From Escherichia coli (GTDB lineage Bacteria; Pseudomonadota; Gammaproteobacteria; Enterobacterales; Enterobacteriaceae): a stretch of 64,000 bases of DNA. A program made the translations under genes and the position numbers. Positions 5,894 through 64,000 of this stretch are shown here, one piece after another (the stretch's first letter is position 1; every line of letters starts with the position of its first letter). The notes below the pieces were generated by a model, which was not told the DNA's origin, did not search any database, and worked only from the letters and a program-made list of their open reading frames with translations. The stretch lies in the NCBI RefSeq assembly GCF_030013205.1, contig NZ_CP122648.1; one strand, 5' to 3'.

Positions 5894-6661
5894 GTGTTTA
5901 ATTCTGACAACCTGAGACTCGACGGAAAATGTGCCATCATCACAGGTGCCGGTGCAGGTATTGGTAAAGAAATTGCCATTACATTCGCGACAGCTGGCGC
6001 ATCTGTGGTGGTCAGTGATATTAACGCCGATGCAGCTAATCATGTTGTAGATGAAATTCAACAACTGGGTGGTCAGGCATTTGCCTGGCGCTGCGATATT
6101 ACTTCCGAACAGGAACTCTCTGCACTGGCAGACTTTGCCGTCAGTAAGCTGGGTAAAGTTGATATCCTGGTTAACAACGCCGGTGGCGGTGGGCCTAAAC
6201 CGTTTGATATGCCAATGGCAGATTTTCGCCGCGCTTATGAACTGAATGTATTTTCTTTTTTCCATCTGTCACAACTTGTTGCGCCAGAAATGGAAAAAAA
6301 TGGCGGTGGCGTTATTCTGACCATTACTTCTATGGCGGCAGAAAATAAAAATATAAACATGACCTCCTATGCATCATCTAAAGCTGCGGCCAGTCATCTG
6401 GTCAGAAACATGGCGTTTGACCTGGGTGAAAAAAATATTCGGGTGAATGGCATTGCGCCGGGGGCAATATTAACCGATGCCCTGAAATCCGTTATTACAC
6501 CTGAAATTGAACAAAAAATGTTACAGCACACACCGATTAGACGTCTGGGCCAACCGCAAGATATTGCTAACGCGGCGCTGTTCCTTTGCTCGCCTGCAGC
6601 CAGCTGGGTAAGCGGACAAATTCTCACCGTCTCCGGTGGTGGGGTACAGGAGCTCAATTAA
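5894..6661 (+). CDS. hdhA: 7-alpha-hydroxysteroid dehydrogenase (SDR family)
   Basis: 255-aa ORF with TGAGAGIG Rossmann motif; recognised as HdhA. Confidence 0.95.
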   Translation: MFNSDNLRLDGKCAIITGAGAGIGKEIAITFATAGASVVVSDINADAANHVVDEIQQLGGQAFAWRCDITSEQELSALADFAVSKLGKVDILVNNAGGGGPKPFDMPMADFRRAYELNVFSFFHLSQLVAPEMEKNGGGVILTITSMAAENKNINMTSYASSKAAASHLVRNMAFDLGEKNIRVNGIAPGAILTDALKSVITPEIEQKMLQHTPIRRLGQPQDIANAALFLCSPAASWVSGQILTVSGGGVQELN

Positions 6662-43256: not shown

Positions 43257-45683
43257 TTATATTTTTTCGATCTCGACCAGATTAGTGTGCTGCGGGTTTC
43301 CCTTCGCCAGTGGTGAAGGGCGCAGAGTGGTTAGCGTATTCACACAGCCGCCGTGGTCGATTTTATCGCCAGACATATTGGCCTCGTGCCAGGCTCCCTG
43401 GCCCATAGCGCTAACCCCAGGGAGAATGCGTGGTGTTACTTTGGCTGGTAGCCGAACTTCGCCACGATGGTTAAACACCCGCACCATATCGCCGTTGGCA
43501 ATCCCACGTTTCTGTGCGTCTATAGGGTTGATCCACACCTCCTGACGGCAGGCAGCCTTCAGGACATCAATGTTGCCGTAGGTCGAGTGAGTACGGGATT
43601 TGTAATGGAAACCAAACAGTTGCAGTGGAAAGGTACTACGTTCAGGGGAGTCCCAGCCTTCAAAGGTTGAGGCATAAACCGGCAGTGGGCTTATCACTTC
43701 ATCTTTTTCCAGTTCCCAGGTACGGGCAATTTCCGCCAGCTTGCTGGAATAAATTTCAATCTTACCGGAAGGCGTTTTAAGTGGATTTGCCTCGGGGTCG
43801 TCACGAAATGCTTTGTAGGCGACAAAATGACCATTAGGATCTTTACGCTTATAGATACCCATTTTTTTCAGTTCGTCGTAAGACGGTAACGCCGGATCTT
43901 TGGCAAGCATTTTGGCGTACAGATGTTGTAACCATTGTTCCTGCGTGCGACCTTCTGTGAACTTTTGATAGACGTCAGGTCCAAGACGTTTCGCGACCTC
44001 ACTCAGGATCCAGTAAATCGGTTTGCGTTCGAATTTTTCGCTGGTGACTGGCTGAAGGAAAATGAGATATCCCATGTTACCGGCGTAGTCGTTAGGAATA
44101 ATATCTTCCTGCTCAACGGTCATCAGGTCTGGCAGCAGAATGTCGGCATATTTTGCCGATGAGGTCATAAAGTTTTCGATGACCACAATCATTTCGCATT
44201 TCGATTCGTCCTGCAGAATTTCATGCGTTTTGTTGATGTCAGAATGCTGATTAACGAGGGTATTTCCCGCGTAGTTCCAGATGAACTTAATGGGCACATC
44301 CAGTTTATCTTTGCCGCGGACGCCGTCGCGGATTGCCGTCATTTGCGGGCCATGATCGATAGCATCTGTCCAGCTGAAGCAGGAGATTGACGTTTTGACC
44401 GGATTATCAAGCACCGGCAGGCGTTCTATGGTAATGGTATAGGTCGATTCACGCGCGCCACTATTTCCGCCGCTGATGCCGACATTGCCCGTCAGAATAG
44501 GCAACATCGCAATAGCGCGTGCAGTCAGCTCGCCGTTTGCCTGGCGTTGCGGTCCCCAGCCCTGACAGATATAAGCGGGTTTTGCTGTGCCAATTTCACG
44601 CGCCAGTTTGATGATACGGTCCACCGGGATACCGGTAATTTGCGAAGCCCACTGCGGCGTTTTCGCTGTTTTGTCGTCTCCTTCACCAAGAATATAGGCT
44701 TTATAGTGACCATTTTTTGGTGCATCTGCGGGTAAGGTTTTTTCGTCATAGCCGACGCAGTATTTATCGAGAAAAGGTTGATCAACGAGATTTTCGTTAA
44801 TCAATACCCAGGCAATACCCGCAACCAGCGCGGCATCGGTGCCCGGGCGAATAGGTAGCCATTCGTCTTCACGACCAGCAGCCGTATCGGTATATCGCGG
44901 ATCGATAACAATCATTTTTGCGTTCGATTTCTCTCGCGCTTTTTCAAGAAGATAAGTGATGCCACCGCCGCTCATGCGGGTTTCTGCCGGGTTGTTACCA
45001 AACATCACGACCAGCTTGCTGTTTTCAATATCCGTGGTGCTGTTGCCATCATTACTGCCGTAGGTGTAGGGCATGGCACAGGAAATTTGCGCGGTGCTGT
45101 AGGAGCCATACTGGTTGAGTGAACCGCCGTAGCAGTTCATCAGGCGTTTGACCGCCGAGGCTGATGGTGAAGAGCGGGTCATATTGCCGCCAACAATCCC
45201 CGAAGAGTACTGAATATATACAGCCTCATTGCCATATTGTTCGACGGTTTTTTTCAGGCTACTGGCGATAGTATCCAGGGCTTCATCCCAGCTAATCCGT
45301 TCGAATTTGCCTTCGCCGCGTTTGCCCACGCGTTTCATTGGGTAATTCAAGCGATCGGGATGATTAATACGCCGACGGATGGAGCGACCGCGCAAACAGG
45401 CACGTACTTGATGATTGCCATACTCGTCGTTGCCGGTGTTGTCAGTTTCCACCCAGGTCACTTCATTATCTTTAACATGCAGACGAAGTGCACAGCGGCT
45501 ACCACAGTTGACGGAACAGGCACCCCAGACCACTTTCTCGCTGGCCTGTTGTACCGCTGCCGCTGCACTGCGCAGGGTGAACGGTAAAGAAAAACCGCCT
45601 GCAGCCAGCGCCAGAGAACCTATCGCGGTAGATTTAACGAGTGTTCTGCGGCTGATGCCCACCATTTGTTCATTTTTGGACAT
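43257..45683 (-). CDS. ynfE: DmsA-paralog molybdopterin oxidoreductase catalytic subunit YnfE
   Basis: 808-aa ORF with twin-arginine (SRRTLVK) Tat signal; about 70 percent identical to YnfF by eye. Confidence 0.93.
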   Translation of the reverse strand: MSKNEQMVGISRRTLVKSTAIGSLALAAGGFSLPFTLRSAAAAVQQASEKVVWGACSVNCGSRCALRLHVKDNEVTWVETDNTGNDEYGNHQVRACLRGRSIRRRINHPDRLNYPMKRVGKRGEGKFERISWDEALDTIASSLKKTVEQYGNEAVYIQYSSGIVGGNMTRSSPSASAVKRLMNCYGGSLNQYGSYSTAQISCAMPYTYGSNDGNSTTDIENSKLVVMFGNNPAETRMSGGGITYLLEKAREKSNAKMIVIDPRYTDTAAGREDEWLPIRPGTDAALVAGIAWVLINENLVDQPFLDKYCVGYDEKTLPADAPKNGHYKAYILGEGDDKTAKTPQWASQITGIPVDRIIKLAREIGTAKPAYICQGWGPQRQANGELTARAIAMLPILTGNVGISGGNSGARESTYTITIERLPVLDNPVKTSISCFSWTDAIDHGPQMTAIRDGVRGKDKLDVPIKFIWNYAGNTLVNQHSDINKTHEILQDESKCEMIVVIENFMTSSAKYADILLPDLMTVEQEDIIPNDYAGNMGYLIFLQPVTSEKFERKPIYWILSEVAKRLGPDVYQKFTEGRTQEQWLQHLYAKMLAKDPALPSYDELKKMGIYKRKDPNGHFVAYKAFRDDPEANPLKTPSGKIEIYSSKLAEIARTWELEKDEVISPLPVYASTFEGWDSPERSTFPLQLFGFHYKSRTHSTYGNIDVLKAACRQEVWINPIDAQKRGIANGDMVRVFNHRGEVRLPAKVTPRILPGVSAMGQGAWHEANMSGDKIDHGGCVNTLTTLRPSPLAKGNPQHTNLVEIEKI

Positions 45684-56890: not shown

Positions 56891-57298
56891 TTATCTTTTA
56901 TTTGTCCGCTGACGGGCTTTTAGTAATTCTTCAAAGAGTTTATTGAAGTTTTTTACTCGAGCTCGCATTTCGGCGAGCTGGGTATCCTGTTCTGATTCTG
57001 GCAGTGCATTAAACAGCTCAAGGAGCTCTAGTTCTTTGGGGGATAAGGCAACTGGCTTCTCAACAGGTGGTGTTGGTTGCTTGTCTTCATCGCCAAATAG
57101 AATCCATGTTGGTGAGCATTGCAATACTTTGCTGAGGGCAAAAAGGTTCTTCCCTGTAGGTTCACTATCACCCCGTTCCCATTGTGATACAGACACATGG
57201 GAGATTTTCAGGGCTTTAGCAAGAGAGCTTTGGGTGTGTTTGAGGTTTTTCCGACGATACCTGATGCGTTCGCCGATAGTTAAATTTTTTGTTTCCAT
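56891..57298 (-). CDS. dicA: XRE-family HTH repressor DicA (cI-like)
   Basis: 135-aa ORF with N-terminal HTH; divergent from dicC. Confidence 0.92.
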   Translation of the reverse strand: METKNLTIGERIRYRRKNLKHTQSSLAKALKISHVSVSQWERGDSEPTGKNLFALSKVLQCSPTWILFGDEDKQPTPPVEKPVALSPKELELLELFNALPESEQDTQLAEMRARVKNFNKLFEELLKARQRTNKR

Positions 57299-57381
57299 AG
57301 TTAGCTAATGCTAAATCGTATTGACTATGTTTTTGTTAACATCTATCTTGTTAGTTATGACTAACAATAAAGGTGTTTTAA
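57299..57381. promoter_or_regulatory. dicA-dicC divergent promoter/operator region
   Basis: 83-bp AT-rich spacer containing dyads TTAGCTAA and TTAGT-TATG-ACTAA between divergent repressor genes. Confidence 0.55.
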
Positions 57382-57612
57382 ATGCTTAAAACTGACGCTC
57401 TTTTGTATTTCGGTTCAAAAACAAAACTTGCACAAGCAGCAGGTATTCGTTTGGCTTCGCTTTATAGCTGGAAAGGGGATTTAGTTCCCGAAGGTCGCGC
57501 GATGCGTCTACAGGAGGCATCTGGCGGGGAGCTTCAGTATGATCCCAAAGTTTATGATGAATATCGTAAGACGAAGCGGGCGGGGCGGTTGAACAATGAA
57601 AATCACTCCTGA
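57382..57612 (+). CDS. dicC: Cro-like regulator DicC
   Basis: 76-aa ORF divergent from dicA; recognised as DicC. Confidence 0.9.
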   Translation: MLKTDALLYFGSKTKLAQAAGIRLASLYSWKGDLVPEGRAMRLQEASGGELQYDPKVYDEYRKTKRAGRLNNENHS

Positions 57613-57919
57613 ACAGGCTCGTGAGGCTCTGGATGCCTGGATATGTCGACCAGGAATGACACAGGAGCAGGCGACGATATTAATCACTGAAGCATTCTGG
57701 GCTTTGAAAGAGCGCCCGAACATCGATGTTCAGCGTGTCACATATGAAGGTGGCGCGATTGATCAGCGAGCGCTTGGCGTTATCTGGTCATCACCTGACG
57801 GAGAAATACGTCGCTACGACAGTCGCCTAAACATAATCTGTCGCGAGTGCCGGAAGAGCGAAGTTATGCAGCGCATACTGGCTTTCTATCAGGGTAATTT
57901 TCAGGACGTGGCGCAGTGA
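57596..57919 (+). CDS. hypothetical prophage protein (YdfX-like position), Cys-containing
   Basis: 107-aa ORF overlapping the dicC 3' end by 17 nt; CxxC at CRECRK; family not assigned. Confidence 0.5.
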   Translation: MKITPEQAREALDAWICRPGMTQEQATILITEAFWALKERPNIDVQRVTYEGGAIDQRALGVIWSSPDGEIRRYDSRLNIICRECRKSEVMQRILAFYQGNFQDVAQ

Positions 57920-58272
57920 GTGCACCGGCAACCATTCTTGATATGTGCTGTGGCAGCCGCATGTTCTGGTTCGATAAGTCTGACGAACGGGCGATATTCA
58001 GCGATATCAGAAAAGAAGGATACACATTACGCAATGGGAGACGCTTGATTATCAGCCCTGACATTATCGCAGATTTTCGTGCATTATCATTTGCAGACGC
58101 ATCTTTTTCGATGGTTGTATTAGACCCTCCGCATCTTGAGAGTGTTGGTGATAACGCCTGGATGGGAAAGAAATATGGACGGCTGAATAAAGATGCCTGG
58201 CGTGATGATTCGCGACAGAGATTTAAAGAAGCCTTTCGGGGGTTGAGGCCGCACGGCGTTCTGATTTTTTAA
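57916..58272 (+). pseudogene. short SAM-methyltransferase-like ORF, probably truncated
   Basis: 118-codon ORF starting at GTG overlapping the upstream stop; motif-I-like ILDMCCGS and DPPH (DPPY-like); ends at a T6 run. Confidence 0.4.
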
Positions 58273-58631
58273 TGGAATGAAACGCAAATACCGGTAAGCC
58301 AGATTCTGGCACTGACAGACAGAAAACCTGTTATCTGTCAACGAACAGGGAAAAAACGATAAAACCCACTGGATTATTTTTATGAAAGAGGCATCCAGTG
58401 AGTAGATTCGTAAGGCTACAGATACGTATATCTGAATAATTAAATTCAGTTCTGTAAATAAAATTTAATCCTTAACCGGATGGATTTCTGCACCCTCAGA
58501 ACATCAGGAGGCCGCCCGAAAGGGCGGTAGTGAAATGCGAATGTTCAAAATTATTATTGAAACGGGAATAGCTGGTGGAGATTTTGAGGATGTATTCGAA
58601 GTGGACGATGACGCAACACCTGAGGAAATTC

Positions 58632-58886
58632 ATGACGGAGCATAAGAAATTTTCTTTAACTACTGCAATTACTCATACCACGAAATAAAAGACGATGAGG
58701 AAGAACAAAGTGGCTGATTTTTGTTCAGCTAAATATAACATCAGTTTTGAAGAGCGGGATGAACTATTAATGGACTATGGTGAGTTACGCGGTGGAAGTG
58801 CTGCTGATGTCGAATCCTAGCGTGATGACTATGAAGCGGGAAAAACTCCGGTCGAAGCATATTGTGATGAGTGGGGCGATGAATGA
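58632..58886 (+). pseudogene. reading frame interrupted by in-frame TAA and TAG, otherwise open
   Basis: Hand translation MTEHKKFSLTTAITHTTK*KTMRKNKVADFCSAKYNISFEERDELLMDYGELRGGSAADVES*RDDYEAGKTPVEAYCDEWGDE*. Confidence 0.3.
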
Positions 58887-59170
58887 GCGAGATTAATTAT
58901 CAGGAAGGGCATGAAACGGCGGGGCAAGCAAAACCAGTGGCATGGCGATATCGCTACGTGAAAAAAGGCGTTACGGACTTTCAGGGGAAGTAGTGGTCTG
59001 GTGACTGGAAATATGTACCGAAAAAAGAGGATTGTAACGACAGGCCGAACTATCAAATTCAGGCCTTATTCACTGCCTCACCAGTCCCAGTTACATCAGA
59101 AGAACTGGTTAAAGCTGTGCACTTTTATGAACAACTAAAACGCGAAAATCCACCAACATCCGGCAACTAG
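58883..59170 (+). pseudogene. reading frame interrupted by one in-frame TAG, start overlaps previous stop (ATGA)
   Basis: Hand translation MSEINYQEGHETAGQAKPVAWRYRYVKKGVTDFQGK*WSGDWKYVPKKEDCNDRPNYQIQALFTASPVPVTSEELVKAVHFYEQLKRENPPTSGN*. Confidence 0.3.
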
Positions 59171-59424
59171 ATTAATGGATTAACTATGTCGGTTAAACGA
59201 CCAGCCAACTGAAAAAGCGGAAACCTGATTACAGGTTGCCAGATAAGGCAATGAGCTACCTGGCGCGGAACGGACTGATAAGTATGGGGAATGTTTTACG
59301 ATGAACCTTTAGACTAAAGAGTTTGTAACGCTATGTAAGTGATTTTTTCTGGTTTAGATATTTATATGTCCGGCCAAATTGAGGTGTGTTTAAATGTAAT
59401 TGCACATTGATTGTAGGAGGAATA

Positions 59425-59604
59425 ATGAAAAACGCATTGCAGTTTTTGTTTGTTGCGTTCTGGTTGTTCGCATCATGTATGCCCATCATCTTCACAGCAA
59501 GGTATATGGAAAAAGTTGATGTTTTGATATTAATATTTGGATATATAAATGCCCTTTTTTTAGGGGTGTTCATGGCGGTCATGTGCATTGAATACTGGCG
59601 GTAA
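59425..59604 (+). CDS. 59-aa hydrophobic (two predicted TM) small protein
   Basis: MKNALQFLFVAFWLFASCMPIIFTARYMEKVDVLILIFGYINALFLGVFMAVMCIEYWR; GGAGG about 6 nt upstream of the ATG. Confidence 0.45.
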   Translation: MKNALQFLFVAFWLFASCMPIIFTARYMEKVDVLILIFGYINALFLGVFMAVMCIEYWR

Positions 59605-59938
59605 ATACAGCGAACTCCATTGGTTTAGTTGGATATTTACTGTGCTGGACAAAAACGGTTTGCGGGGAAATCTTAGTTAAGTAGAATGACTGCGGGTGCT
59701 TGAGGCTATCTGCCTCGGGCATGGACACCAACGGCAGATAGAGAAAAGCCCCAGTTAACATTACGCGTCCTGCAAGACGCTTAACATTAATCTGAGGCCA
59801 ATTTCATGCTAGACACATGTAGGTTAGCCTCTTACGTGCCGAAAGGCACGGAGAAGCAGGCTATTGTTAACACCAAGTTGTAATGTCCCCTTTGAACCAT
59901 TCTAAAATGTCCCCAGACAATTCTCTGGGGGATTTTTC

Positions 59939-61252
59939 ATGATCAAAGAGACTGTTACGATGAGTCATAAGGAACTCCACCGACTTCAGATTATTCAGGA
60001 ACAAGCTGCGGCACGCATTGGCATTTCTATTCGGCAGGTTAAACGTCTGGTGCAACGGTATAGAAATGAAGGGCCTTCTGGTCTGGTTTCCCACCGACGT
60101 GGAAAGCGTCCTAATAATTCCTTTTCTACTGAATTCAGAGCAACAGTAATTTCACTCCTCAAAGGCCGTTACGCTGATTTTGGACCTACGTTTGCGTGCG
60201 AAAAATTGCGCGAGATACACGGTTTATCTTTATCCGTTGAAACTCTCAGAAAGTGGATGATAGAAGAGGGGTTATGGCGTGAACGCCGTCGTAAAATTGC
60301 CCGTATATATCAACGCCGCATGCGACGACCATCTTACGGTGAACTGATCCAGATTGATGGCTCACCTCATGACTGGTTTGAAAATCGAGGCCCCAGATGT
60401 ACACTGATCGTTTTCATTGATGATGCCACCAGTGCGTTGATGGCGTTGCGTTTTGTGCCTGCTGAAACAACCCGGGCTTACATGGAAACCCTCCGGGGTT
60501 ACCTTAATGATCATGGCGTACCGCTCGCTCTCTACTCTGATAGACACAGTATATTCAGGGTAAATAACCCAGAGCGGGAAGGTGAGCTGACCCAGTTCAC
60601 TCGTGCGATAAAGACACTGGGCATCGAGCCAATCCATGCCAACAGCCCGCAGGCAAAAGGGCGGGTAGAGCGCGCCAATCAGACACTACAGGACAGGCTG
60701 GTCAAAGAAATGCGGCTTCAGAATATCAGTGATATTGAAACAGCAAATGCATGGTTGCCGACCTTTATTGAAGCCTATAACAACCGGTTCGCTACGTCGC
60801 CTCGTACTACTGATAATGCTCATCTTGATGTGCACCATTCTGAAGAGGAACTGGGTTATATCTTCAGCCTACAGGCGAAGCGCGTTCTGTCTAAAAATCT
60901 CACTTTCCAGTACAAAAGCAGTGCGTTTCAGGTACGCAGTGAGGGCCGGGGATATCGACTTAGGCATTCGGTTGTTACTGTATGCGAGAACTTTGACGGT
61001 GAAATTAACGTTCTGTATGACGGGAAAGCGCTGGGCTGGGAAAAGTATGTTGATGGCCCGGAGCCTATACCACTGGATGATGAAAAGAGTGTCCATGAAC
61101 GAGTGGATAATGCCCGTATTGATTTACGCTCAAAATACTATGTTAAACCTAAAGCTGACCATCCCTGGCTTACGCGCCGAACGCAAAGTCATCAGCAAGT
61201 TAAGCCCCCGAAGTTACCTAAAAAGAAGCCTGATCCCGATAAAAAAGATTGA
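59939..61252 (+). CDS. DDE transposase with N-terminal HTH and rve-type integrase core (IS481/ISNCY-like), Lys-rich tail
   Basis: 437-aa ORF; HTH at IGISIRQVKRLVQRY; acidic residues in DGSPHDW / FIDDATS / RVERANQ context; family assigned from memory only. Confidence 0.65.
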   Translation: MIKETVTMSHKELHRLQIIQEQAAARIGISIRQVKRLVQRYRNEGPSGLVSHRRGKRPNNSFSTEFRATVISLLKGRYADFGPTFACEKLREIHGLSLSVETLRKWMIEEGLWRERRRKIARIYQRRMRRPSYGELIQIDGSPHDWFENRGPRCTLIVFIDDATSALMALRFVPAETTRAYMETLRGYLNDHGVPLALYSDRHSIFRVNNPEREGELTQFTRAIKTLGIEPIHANSPQAKGRVERANQTLQDRLVKEMRLQNISDIETANAWLPTFIEAYNNRFATSPRTTDNAHLDVHHSEEELGYIFSLQAKRVLSKNLTFQYKSSAFQVRSEGRGYRLRHSVVTVCENFDGEINVLYDGKALGWEKYVDGPEPIPLDDEKSVHERVDNARIDLRSKYYVKPKADHPWLTRRTQSHQQVKPPKLPKKKPDPDKKD

Positions 61253-61586
61253 AACCAAGATCGATTCGGTTGAGTGCATATCCATTCATAGGGTAGATTC
61301 TTAAGTCGCGTTTCTGGTGTTCATTTTCGGGTGGTTTGTTACTTGTTTTACCGGGGATATGCCAGAAACGCGCTGAGTCAGTCTGGGCGGTGCGCGTAAT
61401 GAGGCGTTATGGTAAATAGCCTATGCTAATGTCCGCTAAGAGCAAGAAGCGGAAGTTGGCAGTTTTGTGGACTGTCCCCACAAAAGTGACTACAGAAATA
61501 GTTGCAATTCATAATTGATCATGGGTTGTCAGTTAAACTCGTGGCGATTTAAATAGACTAATTGGGAGTGCGTCCATTACTTATAT

Positions 61587-61635
61587 CTTGTAATGTTAAC
61601 TATCAGAAATTCTTGTAATGTTAACTATCAGAAAT
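61587..61635. repeat. Two tandem copies of a 24-bp unit CTTGTAATGTTAACTATCAGAAAT separated by 1 nt
   Basis: Read directly: 61587-61610 and 61612-61635 are identical; located 3' of flxA. Confidence 0.9.
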
Positions 61636-61713
61636 GATACAAAGATAATATGTCTTTAAAGAAAAGGCTGATGGCGAAAAGTGGCCCGATGAGGGCCACA
61701 ATACGGCTGTCAC

Positions 61714-62046
61714 TTAGACGTAAATATCAATGGTGCCAGCGGTATTTGTATCGTCTTTTTTCTCTTCTTTTTTATCAGGCTGAACTGTCGCGTCTTCATT
61801 CTTTTTCTCTGCCTGCTGCCTTAACAACTGCTCCAGTTGAGCCCAGAGGCTTTCAATTTGCTTCTGTACCAATGCAGCCATTTCTTTTTTCTGCTGTGTC
61901 GTCATCCCCTCTTCCGATGAGATTTTCCCAAGCTTTTCAGTCAGCACCTGAATTTGTCTTGTGATTTTGGCTATTTCTGATGTTCCTTCCGGGGCGGAGT
62001 TGTTTGAAATAACGGTTGAGGTATTTCCCTGAATTGTGACAGACAT
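61714..62046 (-). CDS. flxA: FlxA (FliA-regulated Qin prophage protein)
   Basis: 110-aa ORF MSVTIQGNTSTVISNN... recognised as FlxA; AGGAG upstream. Confidence 0.88.
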   Translation of the reverse strand: MSVTIQGNTSTVISNNSAPEGTSEIAKITRQIQVLTEKLGKISSEEGMTTQQKKEMAALVQKQIESLWAQLEQLLRQQAEKKNEDATVQPDKKEEKKDDTNTAGTIDIYV

Positions 62047-62069
62047 AGATTTCTCCTTTTAAAAAAGCA

Positions 62070-62096
62070 CTATCGGCATGCACAAAAAAATCTTTA
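62070..62096 (-). promoter_or_regulatory. sigma-28 (FliA) type promoter for flxA
   Basis: Minus strand TAAAGATT-N11-GCCGATAG versus consensus TAAAGTTT-N11-GCCGATAA, about 25-50 nt upstream of the flxA ATG. Confidence 0.75.
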
Positions 62097-62248
62097 ATCG
62101 TATTTCTTGTGTCATTAATTGTTTGATGTTCAGATTGTTTTCCTCGCGGGCTGGCGCGCCTCAGAAAGTAAAGCTTGTTGACAGGGGTAAACGTTCGGCA
62201 ATAATTTTCTGCCGCATGCGGGTGTTGCATAAAACGTGTTACGTTCCT

Positions 62249-62554
62249 TTATCGACAGGTCAGGTCACCGCTCACCCGCCGACGAGAAAGCAACACTGAC
62301 ATGCTAAAGCAAAAAATAGATGAATAAGTTGAGTTGTGCATATGTAGCCTGACCGTCACAAAGTATATGGTGTCTGTACCAGTAAGATGATGGCCGGACT
62401 CTTTAAAAACGAGCTGACCTGCACAATACAGGATGGACTTAGCAATGGCTGCTCCTGGCACAAAGCGGACAGTGATCACCGTTCTTACGACTACTTTCTG
62501 ACTTCCTTCGTGACTTGCCCTAAGCATGTTGTAGTGCGATACTTGTAATGACAT
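62249..62554 (-). CDS. ydfV: Qin prophage protein YdfV
   Basis: 101-aa ORF between flxA and relB; identity by position and length, low compositional confidence. Confidence 0.5.
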   Translation of the reverse strand: MSLQVSHYNMLRASHEGSQKVVVRTVITVRFVPGAAIAKSILYCAGQLVFKESGHHLTGTDTIYFVTVRLHMHNSTYSSIFCFSMSVLLSRRRVSGDLTCR

Positions 62555-62566
62555 TTGTAATTACAA
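62543..62566. promoter_or_regulatory. relBE operator (relO) dyad
   Basis: TTGTAATGACATTTGTAATTACAA, containing the 12-bp palindrome TTGTAATTACAA, 13 nt upstream of the relB ATG. Confidence 0.7.
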
Positions 62567-62578
62567 GAGGTGTAAGAC

Positions 62579-62818
62579 ATGGGTAGCATTAACCTGCGTA
62601 TTGACGATGAACTTAAAGCGCGTTCTTACGCCGCGCTTGAAAAAATGGGTGTAACTCCTTCTGAAGCGCTTCGTCTCATGCTCGAGTATATCGCTGACAA
62701 TGAACGCTTGCCGTTCAAACAGACACTCCTGAGTGATGAAGATGCTGAACTTGTGGAGATAGTGAAAGAACGGCTTCGTAATCCTAAGCCAGTACGTGTG
62801 ACGCTGGATGAACTCTGA
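62579..62818 (+). CDS. relB: antitoxin RelB
   Basis: 79-aa ORF recognised as RelB. Confidence 0.95.
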   Translation: MGSINLRIDDELKARSYAALEKMGVTPSEALRLMLEYIADNERLPFKQTLLSDEDAELVEIVKERLRNPKPVRVTLDEL

Positions 62819-63105
62819 TGGCGTATTTTCTGGATTTTGACGAGCGGGCACTAAAGGAATGGCGAAAGCTGGGCTCGACGGTACGTGAACAGTTGAAAAA
62901 GAAGCTGGTTGAAGTACTTGAGTCACCCCGGATTGAAGCAAACAAGCTCCGTGGTATGCCTGATTGTTACAAGATTAAGCTCCGGTCTTCAGGCTATCGC
63001 CTTGTATACCAGGTTATAGACGAGAAAGTTGTCGTTTTCGTGATTTCTGTTGGGAAAAGAGAACGCTCGGAAGTATATAGCGAGGCGGTCAAACGCATTC
63101 TCTGA
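62818..63105 (+). CDS. relE: mRNA interferase toxin RelE
   Basis: 95-aa ORF overlapping the relB stop by 1 nt (TGATG); recognised as RelE. Confidence 0.95.
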   Translation: MAYFLDFDERALKEWRKLGSTVREQLKKKLVEVLESPRIEANKLRGMPDCYKIKLRSSGYRLVYQVIDEKVVVFVISVGKRERSEVYSEAVKRIL

Positions 63106-63176
63106 ACCAAAGCATGACATCTCTGTTTCGCACCGAAGGTGACACTTCTGCTTTGCGTTGACAGGAGAAGCAGGCT

Positions 63177-63332
63177 ATGAAGCAGCAAAAGGCGATGTTA
63201 ATCGCCCTGATCGTCATCTGTTTAACCGTCATAGTGACGGCACTGGTAACGAGGAAAGACCTCTGCGAGGTACGAATCCGAACCGGCCAGACGGAGGTCG
63301 CTGTCTTCACAGCTTACGAACCTGAGGAGTAA
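63177..63332 (+). CDS. hokD: Hok-family membrane toxin HokD (RelF)
   Basis: Hand-translated 51-aa ORF MKQQKAMLIALIVICLTVIVTALVTRKDLCEVRIRTGQTEVAVFTAYEPEE with AGGAG upstream; below ORF-track cutoff. Confidence 0.85.
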   Translation: MKQQKAMLIALIVICLTVIVTALVTRKDLCEVRIRTGQTEVAVFTAYEPEE

Positions 63333-63401
63333 GAGACCCGGCGGGGGAGAAATCCCTCGCCACCTCTGATGTGGCAGGCATCCTCAACGCACCCGCACTT
63401 A

Positions 63402-63430
63402 ACCCGCTTCGGCGGGTTTTTGTTTTTATT
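63402..63430 (+). terminator. Rho-independent terminator after hokD
   Basis: ACCCGC-TTCG-GCGGGT followed by TTTTTGTTTTTATTTT. Confidence 0.7.
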
Positions 63431-63548
63431 TTCAACGCGTTTGAAGTTCTGGACGGTGCCGGAATAGAATCAAAAATACTTAAGTAGCGCGCAGGGATAA
63501 GAGGGATGGTCCCTTAAAGGGGAGAGCTAATTATCCGGAAGGATTCTG

Positions 63549-63800
63549 ATGATGAACATCGAAGAACTGCGTAAAATTTTTTGTGAAGATGGCCTCTATG
63601 CTGTGTGCGTTGAAAATGGAAATCTTGTTAGTCATTACCGCATTATGTGTTTGCGAAAGAATGGGGCTGCGTTAATTAATTTTGTGGATGCTCGGGTCAC
63701 GGACGGATTTATCTTGCGCGAAGGTGAGTTTGTCACTTCATTACAGGCATTGAAAGAGATCGGAATAAAAGCTGGCTTTTCTGCTTTTTCAGGAGAATAA
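63549..63800 (+). CDS. rem: Qin prophage protein Rem
   Basis: 83-aa ORF MMNIEELRKIFCEDGLYAVC... at the position of rem after hokD. Confidence 0.7.
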   Translation: MMNIEELRKIFCEDGLYAVCVENGNLVSHYRIMCLRKNGAALINFVDARVTDGFILREGEFVTSLQALKEIGIKAGFSAFSGE

Positions 63801-63866
63801 ACTCATCTACAATCTTGCGCGGGGCTGAACTCCCGCTGAGTAACACCGTGCCACCGGAGAAAACCG

Positions 63867-64000
63867 ATGGCACGCAACGCAAAATATTACAATTCTGATA
63901 ATTCGCCCGTTCTTGCCTGCACGCACGGGCGGTATTCTCACGCATTCAAGTCTGAATGGTTCCAGCACCCTCCATGCACTGCAGAACAGGCCGAATGGCT
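63867..64000 (+). CDS. ydfU: 5' part of YdfU-like prophage protein (continues beyond window)
   Basis: ATG at 63867 opens frame MARNAKYYNSDNSPVLACTHGRYSHAFKSEWFQHPPCTAEQAEW... running to the window edge; call by position only. Confidence 0.4.
   Translation, partial: MARNAKYYNSDNSPVLACTHGRYSHAFKSEWFQHPPCTAEQAEW

What the first reader, a model, noticed from the sequence alone, without database searches (positions are those of the whole stretch)
62543..62566. relBE operator shares the TTGTAATG motif with the tandem repeat and the transposase flank
The relB upstream dyad is TTGTAATGACATTTGTAATTACAA. The same TTGTAATG octamer recurs at 61588 and 61613 (tandem repeat) and at 59878 (transposase flank). 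Extra RelB-type binding sites scattered through the prophage would be worth knowing about, though an 8-mer can recur by chance in AT-rich phage DNA.
Basis: seen in the sequence. Interest (0 to 1): 0.3.

Follow-up and report, generated by a model that had tools for sequence, protein, structure and literature searches.

The report
Known relBE operator; octamer repeats coincidental
The 24-bp dyad is the well-studied RelB operator of the E. coli relBE toxin-antitoxin operon, and the other copies of its first eight bases are coincidences (a private point mutation and a recent 25-bp duplication), not extra RelB sites; all of them lie inside one 3.3-kb transposon that inserted relBE at the start codon of a hok toxin gene.

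Summary
TTGTAATGACATTTGTAATTACAA lies at 62543-62566, 13 bp upstream of relB, and TTGTAATG recurs at 59878, 61588 and 61613, and also at 43600.

- The 24-mer is the published relO operator. RelB needs paired inverted hexads [A/T]TGT[A/C]A in two abutting 12-bp half-sites. The other octamers carry one hexad only.
- The full half-site pattern, with up to 1 mismatch, occurs only at relO and at one unrelated site.
- 61588 and 61613 are one sequence, doubled by a 25-bp tandem duplication found in 29 of about 1191 E. coli genomes that carry the region.
- The T at 59878 is a private SNP. Of 5426 genomes, 792 read CTGTAATG and none reads TTGTAATG.
- After correction for choosing the octamer post hoc, sharing is at chance (P=0.36; ancestral state P=0.55).

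The context is the more interesting result. Window 59865-63163 is an IS1202-family ("ISEsa1") transposon with 30-bp imperfect inverted repeats and a 15-bp target duplication. It sits at the Shine-Dalgarno/ATG of hokD, and empty sites exist in other strains. Independent copies sit at the same position of three other hok genes. relBE with relO forms the conserved right arm; the cargo between the arms varies.

As posed, the finding is ordinary.

The parts
62543..62566 (.). relO, the RelB/RelBE operator. Left half-site 62543-62554 (TTGTAATGACAT), right half-site 62555-62566 (TTGTAATTACAA); four hexads [A/T]TGT[A/C]A.
   Evidence: Sequence. Unique at up to 3 mismatches. Identical to the published relO half-sites (PMC2812701). 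Invariant in every other copy that carries the right arm, except the Acinetobacter copy, which has one substitution in the operator.
62515..62543 (+). Probable relBE promoter: -35 TTGCCC (62515-62520), 17-nt spacer, -10 GATACT (62538-62543) abutting relO.
   Evidence: Inferred by eye from the sequence. It fits the description that relO overlaps the -10 box and transcription start (PMC3507626). Columns are invariant in 4 diverged copies. The consensus scan did not pick it up.
62579..62818 (+). relB antitoxin (79 aa, ribbon-helix-helix repressor).
   Evidence: NCBIfam NF008412, 133 bits against a cut-off of 96. RefSeq annotation WP_000534858.1.
62818..63105 (+). relE toxin (95 aa).
   Evidence: NCBIfam TIGR02385, 54.7 bits against a cut-off of 27.9. 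RefSeq annotation.
61586..61635 (+). 25-bp unit TCTTGTAATGTTAACTATCAGAAAT in two perfect tandem copies (octamers at 61588 and 61613). It lies in the non-coding stretch between the transposase gene and the 3' end of flxA, inside the variable cargo.
   Evidence: A single copy is present in K-12-type genomes, the plasmids and all IMG/VR contigs. The two-copy junction is in 29 of 5426 genomes.
59878..59885 (+). TTGTAATG inside the left inverted repeat, created by a private C>T change at 59878.
   Evidence: The T-variant 39-mer has no match in 5426 E. coli genomes. The C-variant is in 792 genomes. ATCC 8739 has C here. All plasmid and IMG/VR copies read CTGTAATG. The corresponding IRR positions read CAGAAGTG.
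59865..59894 (+). IRL, the left terminal inverted repeat of the transposon (TGTTAACACCAAGTTGTAATGTCCCCTTTG).
   Evidence: 21 of 30 identical to the reverse complement of 63134-63163. Homology to empty sites stops at 59864.
63134..63163 (-). IRR, the right terminal inverted repeat (reverse complement TGTCAACGCAAAGCAGAAGTGTCACCTTCG).
59850..59864 (+). Left copy of the 15-bp target-site duplication GGAGAAGCAGGCTAT (hok Shine-Dalgarno plus the first two bases of the ATG).
   Evidence: D7. Present once in the empty sites L006 and L007.
63164..63178 (+). Right copy of the 15-bp target-site duplication. It supplies the Shine-Dalgarno sequence and the AT of the hokD start codon.
59865..61457 (+). Left arm of the transposon. 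It holds the IS1202-family ('ISEsa1') DDE transposase gene 59939-61252 (437 aa).
   Evidence: NCBIfam NF033594, 456 bits against a cut-off of 250. 98% identical to the left arm of the 12.8-kb element. Annotated as an ISEsa1 family transposase in plasmids.
61458..62451 (.). Variable cargo of the Qin-type element: flxA (61714-62046, minus strand), most of the ydfV ORF (62249-62554, minus strand), and the 25-bp unit.
   Evidence: No homology to the Phytobacter element, which carries ncr/chr metal-resistance genes in this position.
62452..63163 (+). Conserved right arm: relBE promoter, relO, relB, relE and IRR.
   Evidence: 98.9% identical over 712 bp to the right end of the 12.8-kb element. Found next to IRR in the pOU7519 and S. 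Cubana plasmids.
59694..59865 (+). Orphaned sok/hok leader, the 5' regulatory part of the interrupted hok locus.
   Evidence: Rfam RF01794 (sok), 104 bits against a gathering score of 59, full length. Contiguous with hokD in the empty sites.
63177..63332 (+). hokD (relF), the type I toxin ORF now downstream of relBE.
   Evidence: RefSeq annotation WP_000813254.1. Weak NCBIfam Hok hits. The same protein follows the sok leader directly in L006 and L007.

Best explanation
The 24-bp dyad at 62543-62566 is relO, the operator of the relBE toxin-antitoxin operon. It works as published. Each 12-bp half-site holds two inverted hexads [A/T]TGT[A/C]A and binds one RelB ribbon-helix-helix dimer. Two RelB2-RelE trimers bind the two abutting half-sites cooperatively over the -10/start region and shut the promoter. 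Excess RelE breaks the complex (conditional cooperativity).

The other TTGTAATG copies are not RelB sites; they are coincidences.
- 61588 and 61613 are a single cargo sequence that a minority E. coli lineage duplicated as a perfect 25-bp tandem.
- 59878 lies in the left terminal inverted repeat of a transposon. It matches the octamer only because of a private C>T change in this strain.

All these sites cluster because they sit in one AT-richer 3.3-kb mobile element (59865-63163). This is an IS1202-family ('ISEsa1') transposon with a transposase left arm, a variable middle, and a conserved right arm made of relO-relB-relE plus IRR. It inserted with a 15-bp duplication exactly at the Shine-Dalgarno/ATG of a prophage hok gene. 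That cut hokD off from its sok/mok control region and placed it behind relBE.

Shown here: the sequence identities, the non-conservation of the extra octamers, the element's ends, the duplications and the empty sites.
Inferred: that RelB does not bind the extra octamers, and that the insertion created the relBE-hokD co-transcription unit.
For: relO identity. The published half-sites, the hexad core, and the requirement for both hexads and both adjacent half-sites are in PMC2812701 and PMC3507626.

No second RelB-type site: WTGTMAWKACAW with up to 1 mismatch matches only relO and an unrelated site at 5973. That is 6 strand-matches against 8.7 expected.

Non-independence and non-conservation:
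- The 25-mer is a single copy in K-12-type, plasmid and IMG/VR copies. The duplication junction is in 29 of 5426 genomes.
- The T-variant IRL has no match, against 792 genomes with the C-variant.
- The 12.8-kb element has the octamer only at relO.
- The Acinetobacter copy keeps the hexads but not the octamer.

Statistics.

Transposon:
- IR match of 21/30.
- The healed site aligns as one 1187-bp HSP at 98.2% to empty site L006.
- Four different perfect 15-bp duplications flank the element at four hok genes. A fifth insertion lies in a non-hok site.
- 28 IMG/VR contigs have both ends and matching duplications.
- Arm and cargo structure.
Against: No binding experiment was possible, so weak RelB binding to a lone hexad cannot be formally excluded.

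The naive local count is high: 3 against 0.15 expected.

The 25-mer resembles the relO edges over more than 8 bases. ATTCTTGTAATG against ATACTTGTAATG is 11/12 (D19). A 20-nt stretch is 75% complementary to the right part of relO (I7/I8).

For the transposon:
- Transposition was not observed directly.
- The ISfinder entry, as tabulated in PMC10132070, gives ISEsa1 as 1609 bp with no target duplication.
- One non-hok insertion shows only a 6-bp flanking repeat.
Confidence: 0.9

Rival explanations
1. One reading: the extra TTGTAATG copies are auxiliary or low-affinity RelB (RelB2E) binding sites. They would tie the transposase, flxA or other prophage genes to the relBE autoregulatory circuit, or act as decoys.
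For: The octamer holds one complete hexad, TTGTAA. Naive local enrichment is P about 0.001. The unit matches 11/12 with the left edge of relO (D19). Duplicating the unit would double such a site.
Against: Each extra site lacks the inverted second hexad: TGTTAA and TGTCCC in place of TGACAT or TTACAA. Mutating that side of a half-site derepresses 12- to 36-fold, and both half-sites must abut. No half-site-like match appears at up to 1 mismatch. 59878 is a private SNP. The duplication is in 29 of about 1191 genomes. The 12.8-kb sister element lacks the unit altogether. The look-elsewhere-corrected P is 0.36.
Confidence: 0.04
2. The shared motif reflects transposase biology rather than RelB. On this view (C/T)TGTAATGT is a transposase-binding subterminal motif, and the internal 25-bp unit, which also contains the IRL tip TGTTAAC, is a vestigial or alternative transposon end.
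For: The octamer lies within IRL positions 14-21. The unit reads TTGTAA-TGTTAAC, and TGTTAAC is the first 7 bp of IRL. TGTCCCC recurs at 59884, 59908 and 61473 (D14).
Against: The IRR counterpart of the octamer is CAGAAGTG, so the motif is not part of the conserved IR core. The unit lies in cargo that other family members lack. No element was found ending at the unit. A 7-mer or 8-mer match in 3.3 kb is expected by chance.
Confidence: 0.03
3. The 25-bp unit is a degenerate relic of an older relO-like operator, related by descent rather than by chance. It would be left over from a former TA promoter in the cargo.
For: 20-nt arms are 75% complementary to the right part of relO (I7/I8). There is an 11/12 match to its left edge (D19).
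Against: No antitoxin-like ORF adjoins the unit; it lies downstream of the 3' end of flxA. Similarity does not extend beyond about 12 nt. It is within chance expectations for an AT-rich motif.
Confidence: 0.03

Closest known systems
relO, the RelB/RelBE operator of E. coli K-12 (Overgaard et al. 2008, 2009; Li et al. 2008; Boggild et al. 2012)
   Same: 62543-62566 is identical in sequence and position to the published operator. It has two abutting 12-bp half-sites and four [A/T]TGT[A/C]A hexads, lies next to the -10 box, and sits 13 bp before the relB ATG.
   Different: Nothing differs at relO itself. The other three octamers share only one hexad plus two less critical bases, and fail the operator definition.
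Arc/MetJ/CopG-type ribbon-helix-helix operators
   Same: Tandem short inverted subsites on one face of the helix, bound cooperatively by dimers. The published RelB-DNA model was built on the Arc-operator structure.
   Different: Arc's operator is one base pair shorter. The comparison is relevant only to relO.
IS1202 family insertion sequences (ISEsa1, ISAjo2, IS1202; Microb Genom 2023, PMC10132070)
   Same: The transposase matches NF033594 and is annotated as an ISEsa1 family transposase. The terminal repeats are imperfect. The 15-bp duplication is close to the 16-17 bp listed for several family members. Insertion is orientation- and position-specific next to a defined target, as with ISAjo2-type elements at dif/pdif.
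   Different: The unit delimited here is 3.3 to 12.8 kb and carries passenger genes, with relBE always at the right end. ISEsa1 is tabulated as 1609 bp, IR 15/22, with no duplication detected. The target is the Shine-Dalgarno/ATG of hok genes, not a Xer site.
[quoted passage not shown]
   Same: The left flank is a full-length sok/hok leader (Rfam, 104 bits) and the right flank is hokD. Intact versions exist in other strains. From my own knowledge (Pedersen and Gerdes 1999), several K-12 hok loci are inactivated by IS elements.
   Different: Here the insertion falls precisely between the leader and the coding region. It duplicates the Shine-Dalgarno sequence, so hokD keeps a ribosome-binding site but loses sok/mok control and acquires relBE upstream.

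Membership tests
RelB operator (relO-type site): 62543-62566 | 12-bp half-site made of two inverted hexads [A/T]TGT[A/C]A | tested here: met
   TTGTAA/TGACAT and TTGTAA/TTACAA. The pattern WTGTMAWKACAW matches with 0 mismatches at 62543 and 62555. The definition comes from PMC2812701.
RelB operator (relO-type site): 62543-62566 | Two half-sites directly abutting, with no spacer | tested here: met
   62543-62554 is followed immediately by 62555-62566. The requirement is stated.
RelB operator (relO-type site): 62543-62566 | Overlaps the promoter (-10/start) of a relB-relE operon | tested here: met
   The relB ATG is at 62579. An inferred -10 GATACT lies at 62538-62543. relB and relE are confirmed by NCBIfam. 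The promoter assignment itself is inferred.
RelB operator (relO-type site): 62543-62566 | Bound by RelB2/RelB2E in vitro or in vivo | not testable with these tools
   Binding is established for the identical K-12 sequence in the literature.
RelB operator (relO-type site): extra octamers at 59878, 61588, 61613 | Second inverted hexad completing a 12-bp half-site | tested here: not met
   The following hexads are TGTCCC (59884) and TGTTAA (61594, 61619). None matches the half-site pattern even with 1 mismatch.
RelB operator (relO-type site): extra octamers at 59878, 61588, 61613 | Adjacent second half-site in phase | tested here: not met
   No hexad pair follows any of them. The two tandem units are 25 bp apart, not 12.
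RelB operator (relO-type site): extra octamers at 59878, 61588, 61613 | Conservation among related elements, as seen for relO | tested here: not met
   59878 is T only in this window. The unit is absent from the 12.8-kb element. The duplication is in 29 genomes only.
IS1202-family transposable element: 59865-63163 | DDE transposase of the IS1202/ISNCY_2 type | tested here: met
   NF033594, E=7e-137, 456 bits against a cut-off of 250.
IS1202-family transposable element: 59865-63163 | Imperfect terminal inverted repeats of about 24-30 bp | tested here: met
   21 of 30 identical, both ends starting TGT. The same ends occur in the plasmid and IMG/VR copies.
IS1202-family transposable element: 59865-63163 | Direct target-site duplication flanking the ends, single copy in the empty site | tested here: met
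   The 15-bp GGAGAAGCAGGCTAT is on both sides (D7) and occurs once in L006 and L007. Three other 15-bp duplications flank other hok genes.
IS1202-family transposable element: 59865-63163 | Agreement with the catalogued ISEsa1 boundaries (1609 bp, no duplication) | tested here: not met
   Homology between elements with different cargo ends near element position 1593, close to the catalogued 1609 bp. The duplications, however, flank the 3.3- and 12.8-kb units. The ISfinder sequence itself could not be inspected.
IS1202-family transposable element: 59865-63163 | Demonstrated transposition | not testable with these tools
   Only comparative evidence is available: five distinct insertion sites.
hok/sok locus: 59694-59865 plus 63164-63332 | sok/hok-leader RNA structure and a Hok ORF | tested here: met
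   Rfam RF01794, 104 bits against a gathering score of 59. The HokD ORF is identical to WP_000813254.1.

The most novel reading that the evidence does not exclude
relBE with its operator is not a free-standing prophage gene pair. It is the fixed right-end module of an IS1202-family transposon that targets the Shine-Dalgarno/start codon of hok toxin genes. The left arm is the catalogued 'ISEsa1'. The middle holds exchangeable cargo: flxA-ydfV here, and ncr/chr metal-resistance genes on IncF plasmids. On this reading the catalogued 1609-bp ISEsa1 with 'no target duplication' is only the left arm of the real mobile unit. The classical relBE-hokD ('relBEF') operon of E. coli K-12 would then be the product of such an insertion, which swapped sok/mok control of a type I toxin for RelB-controlled read-through. 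I found no description of this in the searchable literature. The fact that relBE integrated at hokD was noted earlier (cited in PMC6379469). The probability given is for the structure being right and also previously undescribed.
Probability: 0.45. Interest if true: 0.5.

Novelty: already known. Interest (0 to 1): 0.2.

Why it matters
As posed, the finding does not matter much. relO is one of the best-characterised toxin-antitoxin operators, and there is no evidence for a wider RelB regulon in this prophage.

The useful results are these.
- A clear negative. The octamer is not the functional unit of RelB recognition. Its recurrences are a SNP and a recent duplication, so no gel shift is worth prioritising.
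- A better description of the locus. relBE, flxA and ydfV arrived together as the payload of a hok-targeting IS1202-family transposon.

If the second point holds up, it explains several things:
- why hokD lacks sok/mok and is co-transcribed with relBE;
- why no target duplication was found for 'ISEsa1';
- how relBE spreads among IncF and IncI plasmids and prophages together with metal-resistance cargo.

Tried and rejected
1. I first looked for the right end of the IS near 61570-61600, just before the tandem repeat. Pairing GTCCATTAC with the left-end GTAATGTCC gave only a weak, gapped inverted repeat. I dropped this once the 15-bp direct repeat (D7), the 21/30 IR at 63134-63163 and the empty sites fixed the real end.

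2. The 12-bp perfect inverted match between 59753-59764 (sok leader) and the repeat unit (I17/I18) is judged chance. About 0.4 such matches are expected in 3.8 kb, and the two hits are one duplicated sequence.

3. I considered the 25-bp tandem as a transposon footprint or target duplication. Some IS1202 members make 24-29-bp duplications. There is no supporting evidence: no IS ends adjoin it, and it is a minority allele. Simple duplication is preferred.

4. The promoter/terminator scan of 59600-63400 found nothing above shuffle expectation. It did not detect a promoter at the units beyond a 9/12 match at 61621-61649.

5. An Rfam scan of 57000-64000 found only the sok leader above threshold.

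6. The NCBIfam scan returned no family for the flxA product, which told me nothing about the cargo.

7. The search for the T-variant IRL returned no match. This first looked like a tool problem. It was then explained by the SNP against ATCC 8739.

8. The original paper on relBE integration at hokD (Ramisetty and Santhosh 2016, doi 10.1093/femsle/fnv238) is not held and no preprint was found. What it says about the vehicle is therefore unknown to me.

9. The 64-kb window served as background: 1 copy in the 59.9 kb outside the element.

Full report
**1. The observation**

The window tail matches the E. coli Qin prophage. Positions 61250-63400 are 100% identical to E. coli ATCC 8739, with flxA, ydfV, relB, relE and hokD annotated. 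TTGTAATGACATTTGTAATTACAA lies at 62543-62566, 13 bp before the relB ATG at 62579. It is unique in the window even with 3 mismatches allowed. TTGTAATG occurs five times on the + strand: 43600, 59878, 61588, 61613 and 62543. The tandem repeat is a 25-bp unit, TCTTGTAATGTTAACTATCAGAAAT, present as two perfect copies at 61586-61635.

**2. What the dyad is**

It is relO, letter for letter. Overgaard et al. 2009 (PMC2812701) describe:
- a pseudo-palindromic left half-site, TTGTAATGACAT;
- four hexads with core [A/T]TGT[A/C]A.

Mutations on either side of a half-site derepress 12- to 36-fold. Spacers of 2 or 10 nt between the half-sites abolish repression. The central AT and the terminal A of each hexad matter least.

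Boggild et al. 2012 (PMC3507626) give the structural model. Two RelB2E trimers sit on adjacent sites over the -10/start region, and excess RelE releases them (conditional cooperativity).

relB and relE are confirmed by NCBIfam. The operator and promoter are invariant in Salmonella and Phytobacter copies. In an Acinetobacter copy the left half-site reads TTGTAACGACAT, which keeps the hexad cores but not the octamer. The functional unit is therefore the pair of hexads, not TTGTAATG.

**3. Are the other octamers RelB sites?**

Each carries one hexad (TTGTAA) followed by TG. The next six bases are TGTCCC at 59878 and TGTTAA at 61588 and 61613, not an inverted hexad. No second half-site follows. 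The degenerate half-site WTGTMAWKACAW with up to 1 mismatch hits only relO and one unrelated site at 5973. That is 6 strand-matches against 8.7 expected. By the published operator genetics, these sequences should not bind RelB dimers to any useful extent. That last step is inference; no binding assay was possible.

**4. Independence and conservation**

*The tandem repeat.*
- The 25-bp unit is a single copy in a K-12-type genome, in two plasmids and in every IMG/VR contig that carries it.
- In a spread sample of the 1191 E. coli genomes with this region, all but two of the 30 records listed span 145 bp instead of 170.
- A 40-mer across the duplication junction is found in only 29 of 5426 genomes.
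- So 61588 and 61613 count as one occurrence, recently doubled.

*The copy at 59878.*
- The window differs from ATCC 8739 by four SNPs in 6.2 kb, and one of them is C>T at 59878.
- A 39-mer with T has no match in 5426 complete E. coli genomes. The same 39-mer with C is in 792.
- All plasmid copies and all IMG/VR copies read CTGTAATG.
- This octamer exists only in this strain.

**5. Statistics**

- Whole window: 5 observed against 2.68 expected; 15 of 100 shuffles reach 5.
- Within the 3.3-kb element, which is 45.5% GC against 49.2% for the window, a naive test gives 3 independent copies against 0.15 expected, P about 0.001.
- The octamer was chosen after the fact, from a 24-mer that offers 29 distinct 8-mers on two strands. 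Counting any relO 8-mer elsewhere in the element, with the duplication collapsed, gives 3 hits against 2.15 expected (P=0.36). The same 8-mer hit twice has P=0.12.
- With the ancestral C at 59878 there are 2 hits (P=0.55).

The recurrence is what chance gives.

**6. What is really around it**

*The transposase.* The 437-aa ORF at 59939-61252 is an IS1202-family (ISNCY_2) transposase, 456 bits. Plasmid records annotate it as an 'IS1202-like element ISEsa1 family transposase'.

*The flanks.* Immediately to the left, Rfam finds a full-length sok/hok leader at 59694-59865 (104 bits). A 15-bp direct repeat, GGAGAAGCAGGCTAT, lies at 59850-59864 and again at 63164-63178, just before hokD (D7). The 30 bp inside these repeats are inverted repeats, 21 of 30 identical.

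*Empty sites.* Other E. coli strains (L006, L007) have the same prophage region with the sok leader running straight into hokD. Joining window 59300-59864 to 63179-63800 gives a single 1187-bp alignment at 98.2% to L006. Hence 59865-63163 (3299 bp) is an insertion with a 15-bp target duplication.

*Independent insertions.*

| Copy | Host and replicon | Flanking repeat | Target |
|---|---|---|---|
| Window | E. coli Qin prophage | GGAGAAGCAGGCTAT (15 bp) | hokD |
| L008 | Enterobacter IncF plasmid | GGAGAAGAAGGCCAT (15 bp) | a different hok gene |
| L009 | Salmonella IncI plasmid | TGGAGGGGCTATGAT (15 bp) | a different hok gene |
| L010 | Phytobacter IncF plasmid, 12,843-bp version | GGAGAAGTCAGCTAT (15 bp) | a different hok gene |
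| L018 | IMG/VR contig | CGCCTT (6 bp) | not a hok site |

In every hok case the duplication ends at the second base of the hok ATG.

*Arms and cargo.* The 3.3-kb and 12.8-kb versions share a left arm (59865-61457) and a right arm (62452-63163: promoter, relO, relB, relE, IRR). They differ completely in between. The window has flxA-ydfV there; the Phytobacter element has ncrYCBA, chrBA and other genes.

*Where the octamers fall.* relO is in the conserved right arm. The 25-bp unit is in the variable cargo. The SNP-made copy is in IRL. Their clustering reflects a shared AT-richer mobile element, not a regulon.

**7. Comparison with the literature**

The IS1202-family paper (PMC10132070) lists ISEsa1 as 1609 bp, IR 15/22, 439-aa transposase, with no target duplication found. 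It places ISEsa1 in a sub-group defined by that absence. The point where homology between differently loaded elements ends (element position about 1593, or 1620 with the 27-bp indel) is close to 1609. The catalogued right end is therefore probably the arm/cargo boundary rather than a true terminus. I could not inspect the ISfinder entry, so this remains a well-supported inference.

That relBE integrated at hokD and came from plasmids was already noted by Ramisetty and Santhosh 2016, as cited in PMC6379469. The original is not held. No paper in the searchable library links hok with IS1202 or ISEsa1, or describes relBE as a transposon module.

**8. Verdict**

- The dyad is the known relO.
- The shared octamer is real but coincidental, so the 'extra RelB sites' idea is not supported.
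- The finding as posed is ordinary, at about 0.05-0.1 interest.
- The overall score of 0.2 allows for the by-product: a re-delimited, hok-targeting, relBE-carrying IS1202-family transposon. A mobile-element or toxin-antitoxin specialist would find it moderately interesting. It is testable with simple assays.

Noticed in passing
window 59939-61252 (deletion point after codon 21, about 60001): The window's transposase (437 aa) is 100% identical to the 446-aa plasmid ISEsa1-family transposase except for an in-frame 9-aa deletion (SINRHITQE) in the N-terminal helix-turn-helix region. Both length classes of the element (3274 and 3301 bp) occur in IMG/VR contigs. The Qin copy may be unable to transpose.
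   Followed up: partly
L018 1345-4645 (IMG/VR contig IMGVR_UViG_2912051188_000002): A complete 3301-bp copy of the element lies in a non-hok site. It is flanked by only a 6-bp direct repeat (CGCCTT), not the 15 bp seen at hok sites. This is a single example. Whether duplication length depends on the target is unexplained.
   Followed up: partly
L011 about 2185-2240; L058 712-4011: L011 has the right end of one element, 15 bp (GGAGAAGAAGGCCTG), then the left end of another. This looks like repeated insertion into the regenerated hok target. L058 has a pndA-type left flank and a hokD-type right flank, which suggests recombination between two copies.
   Followed up: no
L010 1016-13858 (Phytobacter plasmid pMRY16-398_1); also L012 (pECL_A): The nickel (ncrABCY) and chromate (chrBA) resistance cluster common on Klebsiella and Enterobacter IncF plasmids sits between the ISEsa1 left arm and the relBE/IRR right arm. 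The 12.8-kb unit is flanked by a 15-bp duplication at a hok gene, so the cluster appears to be transposon cargo.
   Followed up: partly
window 62249-62554 (ydfV ORF, minus strand): The annotated ydfV ORF straddles the boundary at 62451/62452 between variable cargo and the conserved right arm, and it overlaps the relBE promoter and relO. It is therefore a chimeric reading frame, and its status as a real gene is doubtful.
   Followed up: no
window 62178-62205 (+): The best sigma-70-like match in the region is here: TTGACA, 16 nt, AATAAT (11/12). It lies inside the cargo, about 50 bp beyond the 3' end of the ydfV ORF (minus strand), and points towards relB. Its function is unknown.
   Followed up: no
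window about 57782 compared with L001 927-2530: Relative to ATCC 8739, the window lacks about 1.6 kb. In ATCC 8739 that stretch covers part of a YdaT-family gene, a hypothetical gene and the start of a DUF977 gene. The window also carries SNPs at 58241, 58542, 59878 and 60353. The source strain is close to, but not the same as, ATCC 8739.
   Followed up: no
window 59884, 59908, 61473: TGTCCCC occurs three times in the same orientation: in IRL, 24 bp further in, and at the start of the cargo inside a small hairpin at 61455-61493 (D14 and I15). The last might be a vestige of another element end at the arm/cargo boundary.
   Followed up: no
window 63341-63422 (+): There is a weak, sub-threshold Rfam match to isrK (25 bits against a gathering score of 50, E=0.029) just downstream of hokD. 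It probably reflects the 3' structured region or terminator of hok mRNA rather than an isrK homologue.
   Followed up: no
window 43600-43607: A fifth TTGTAATG lies about 16 kb upstream of the cluster. It is the only copy in the 59.9 kb outside the transposon.
   Followed up: no
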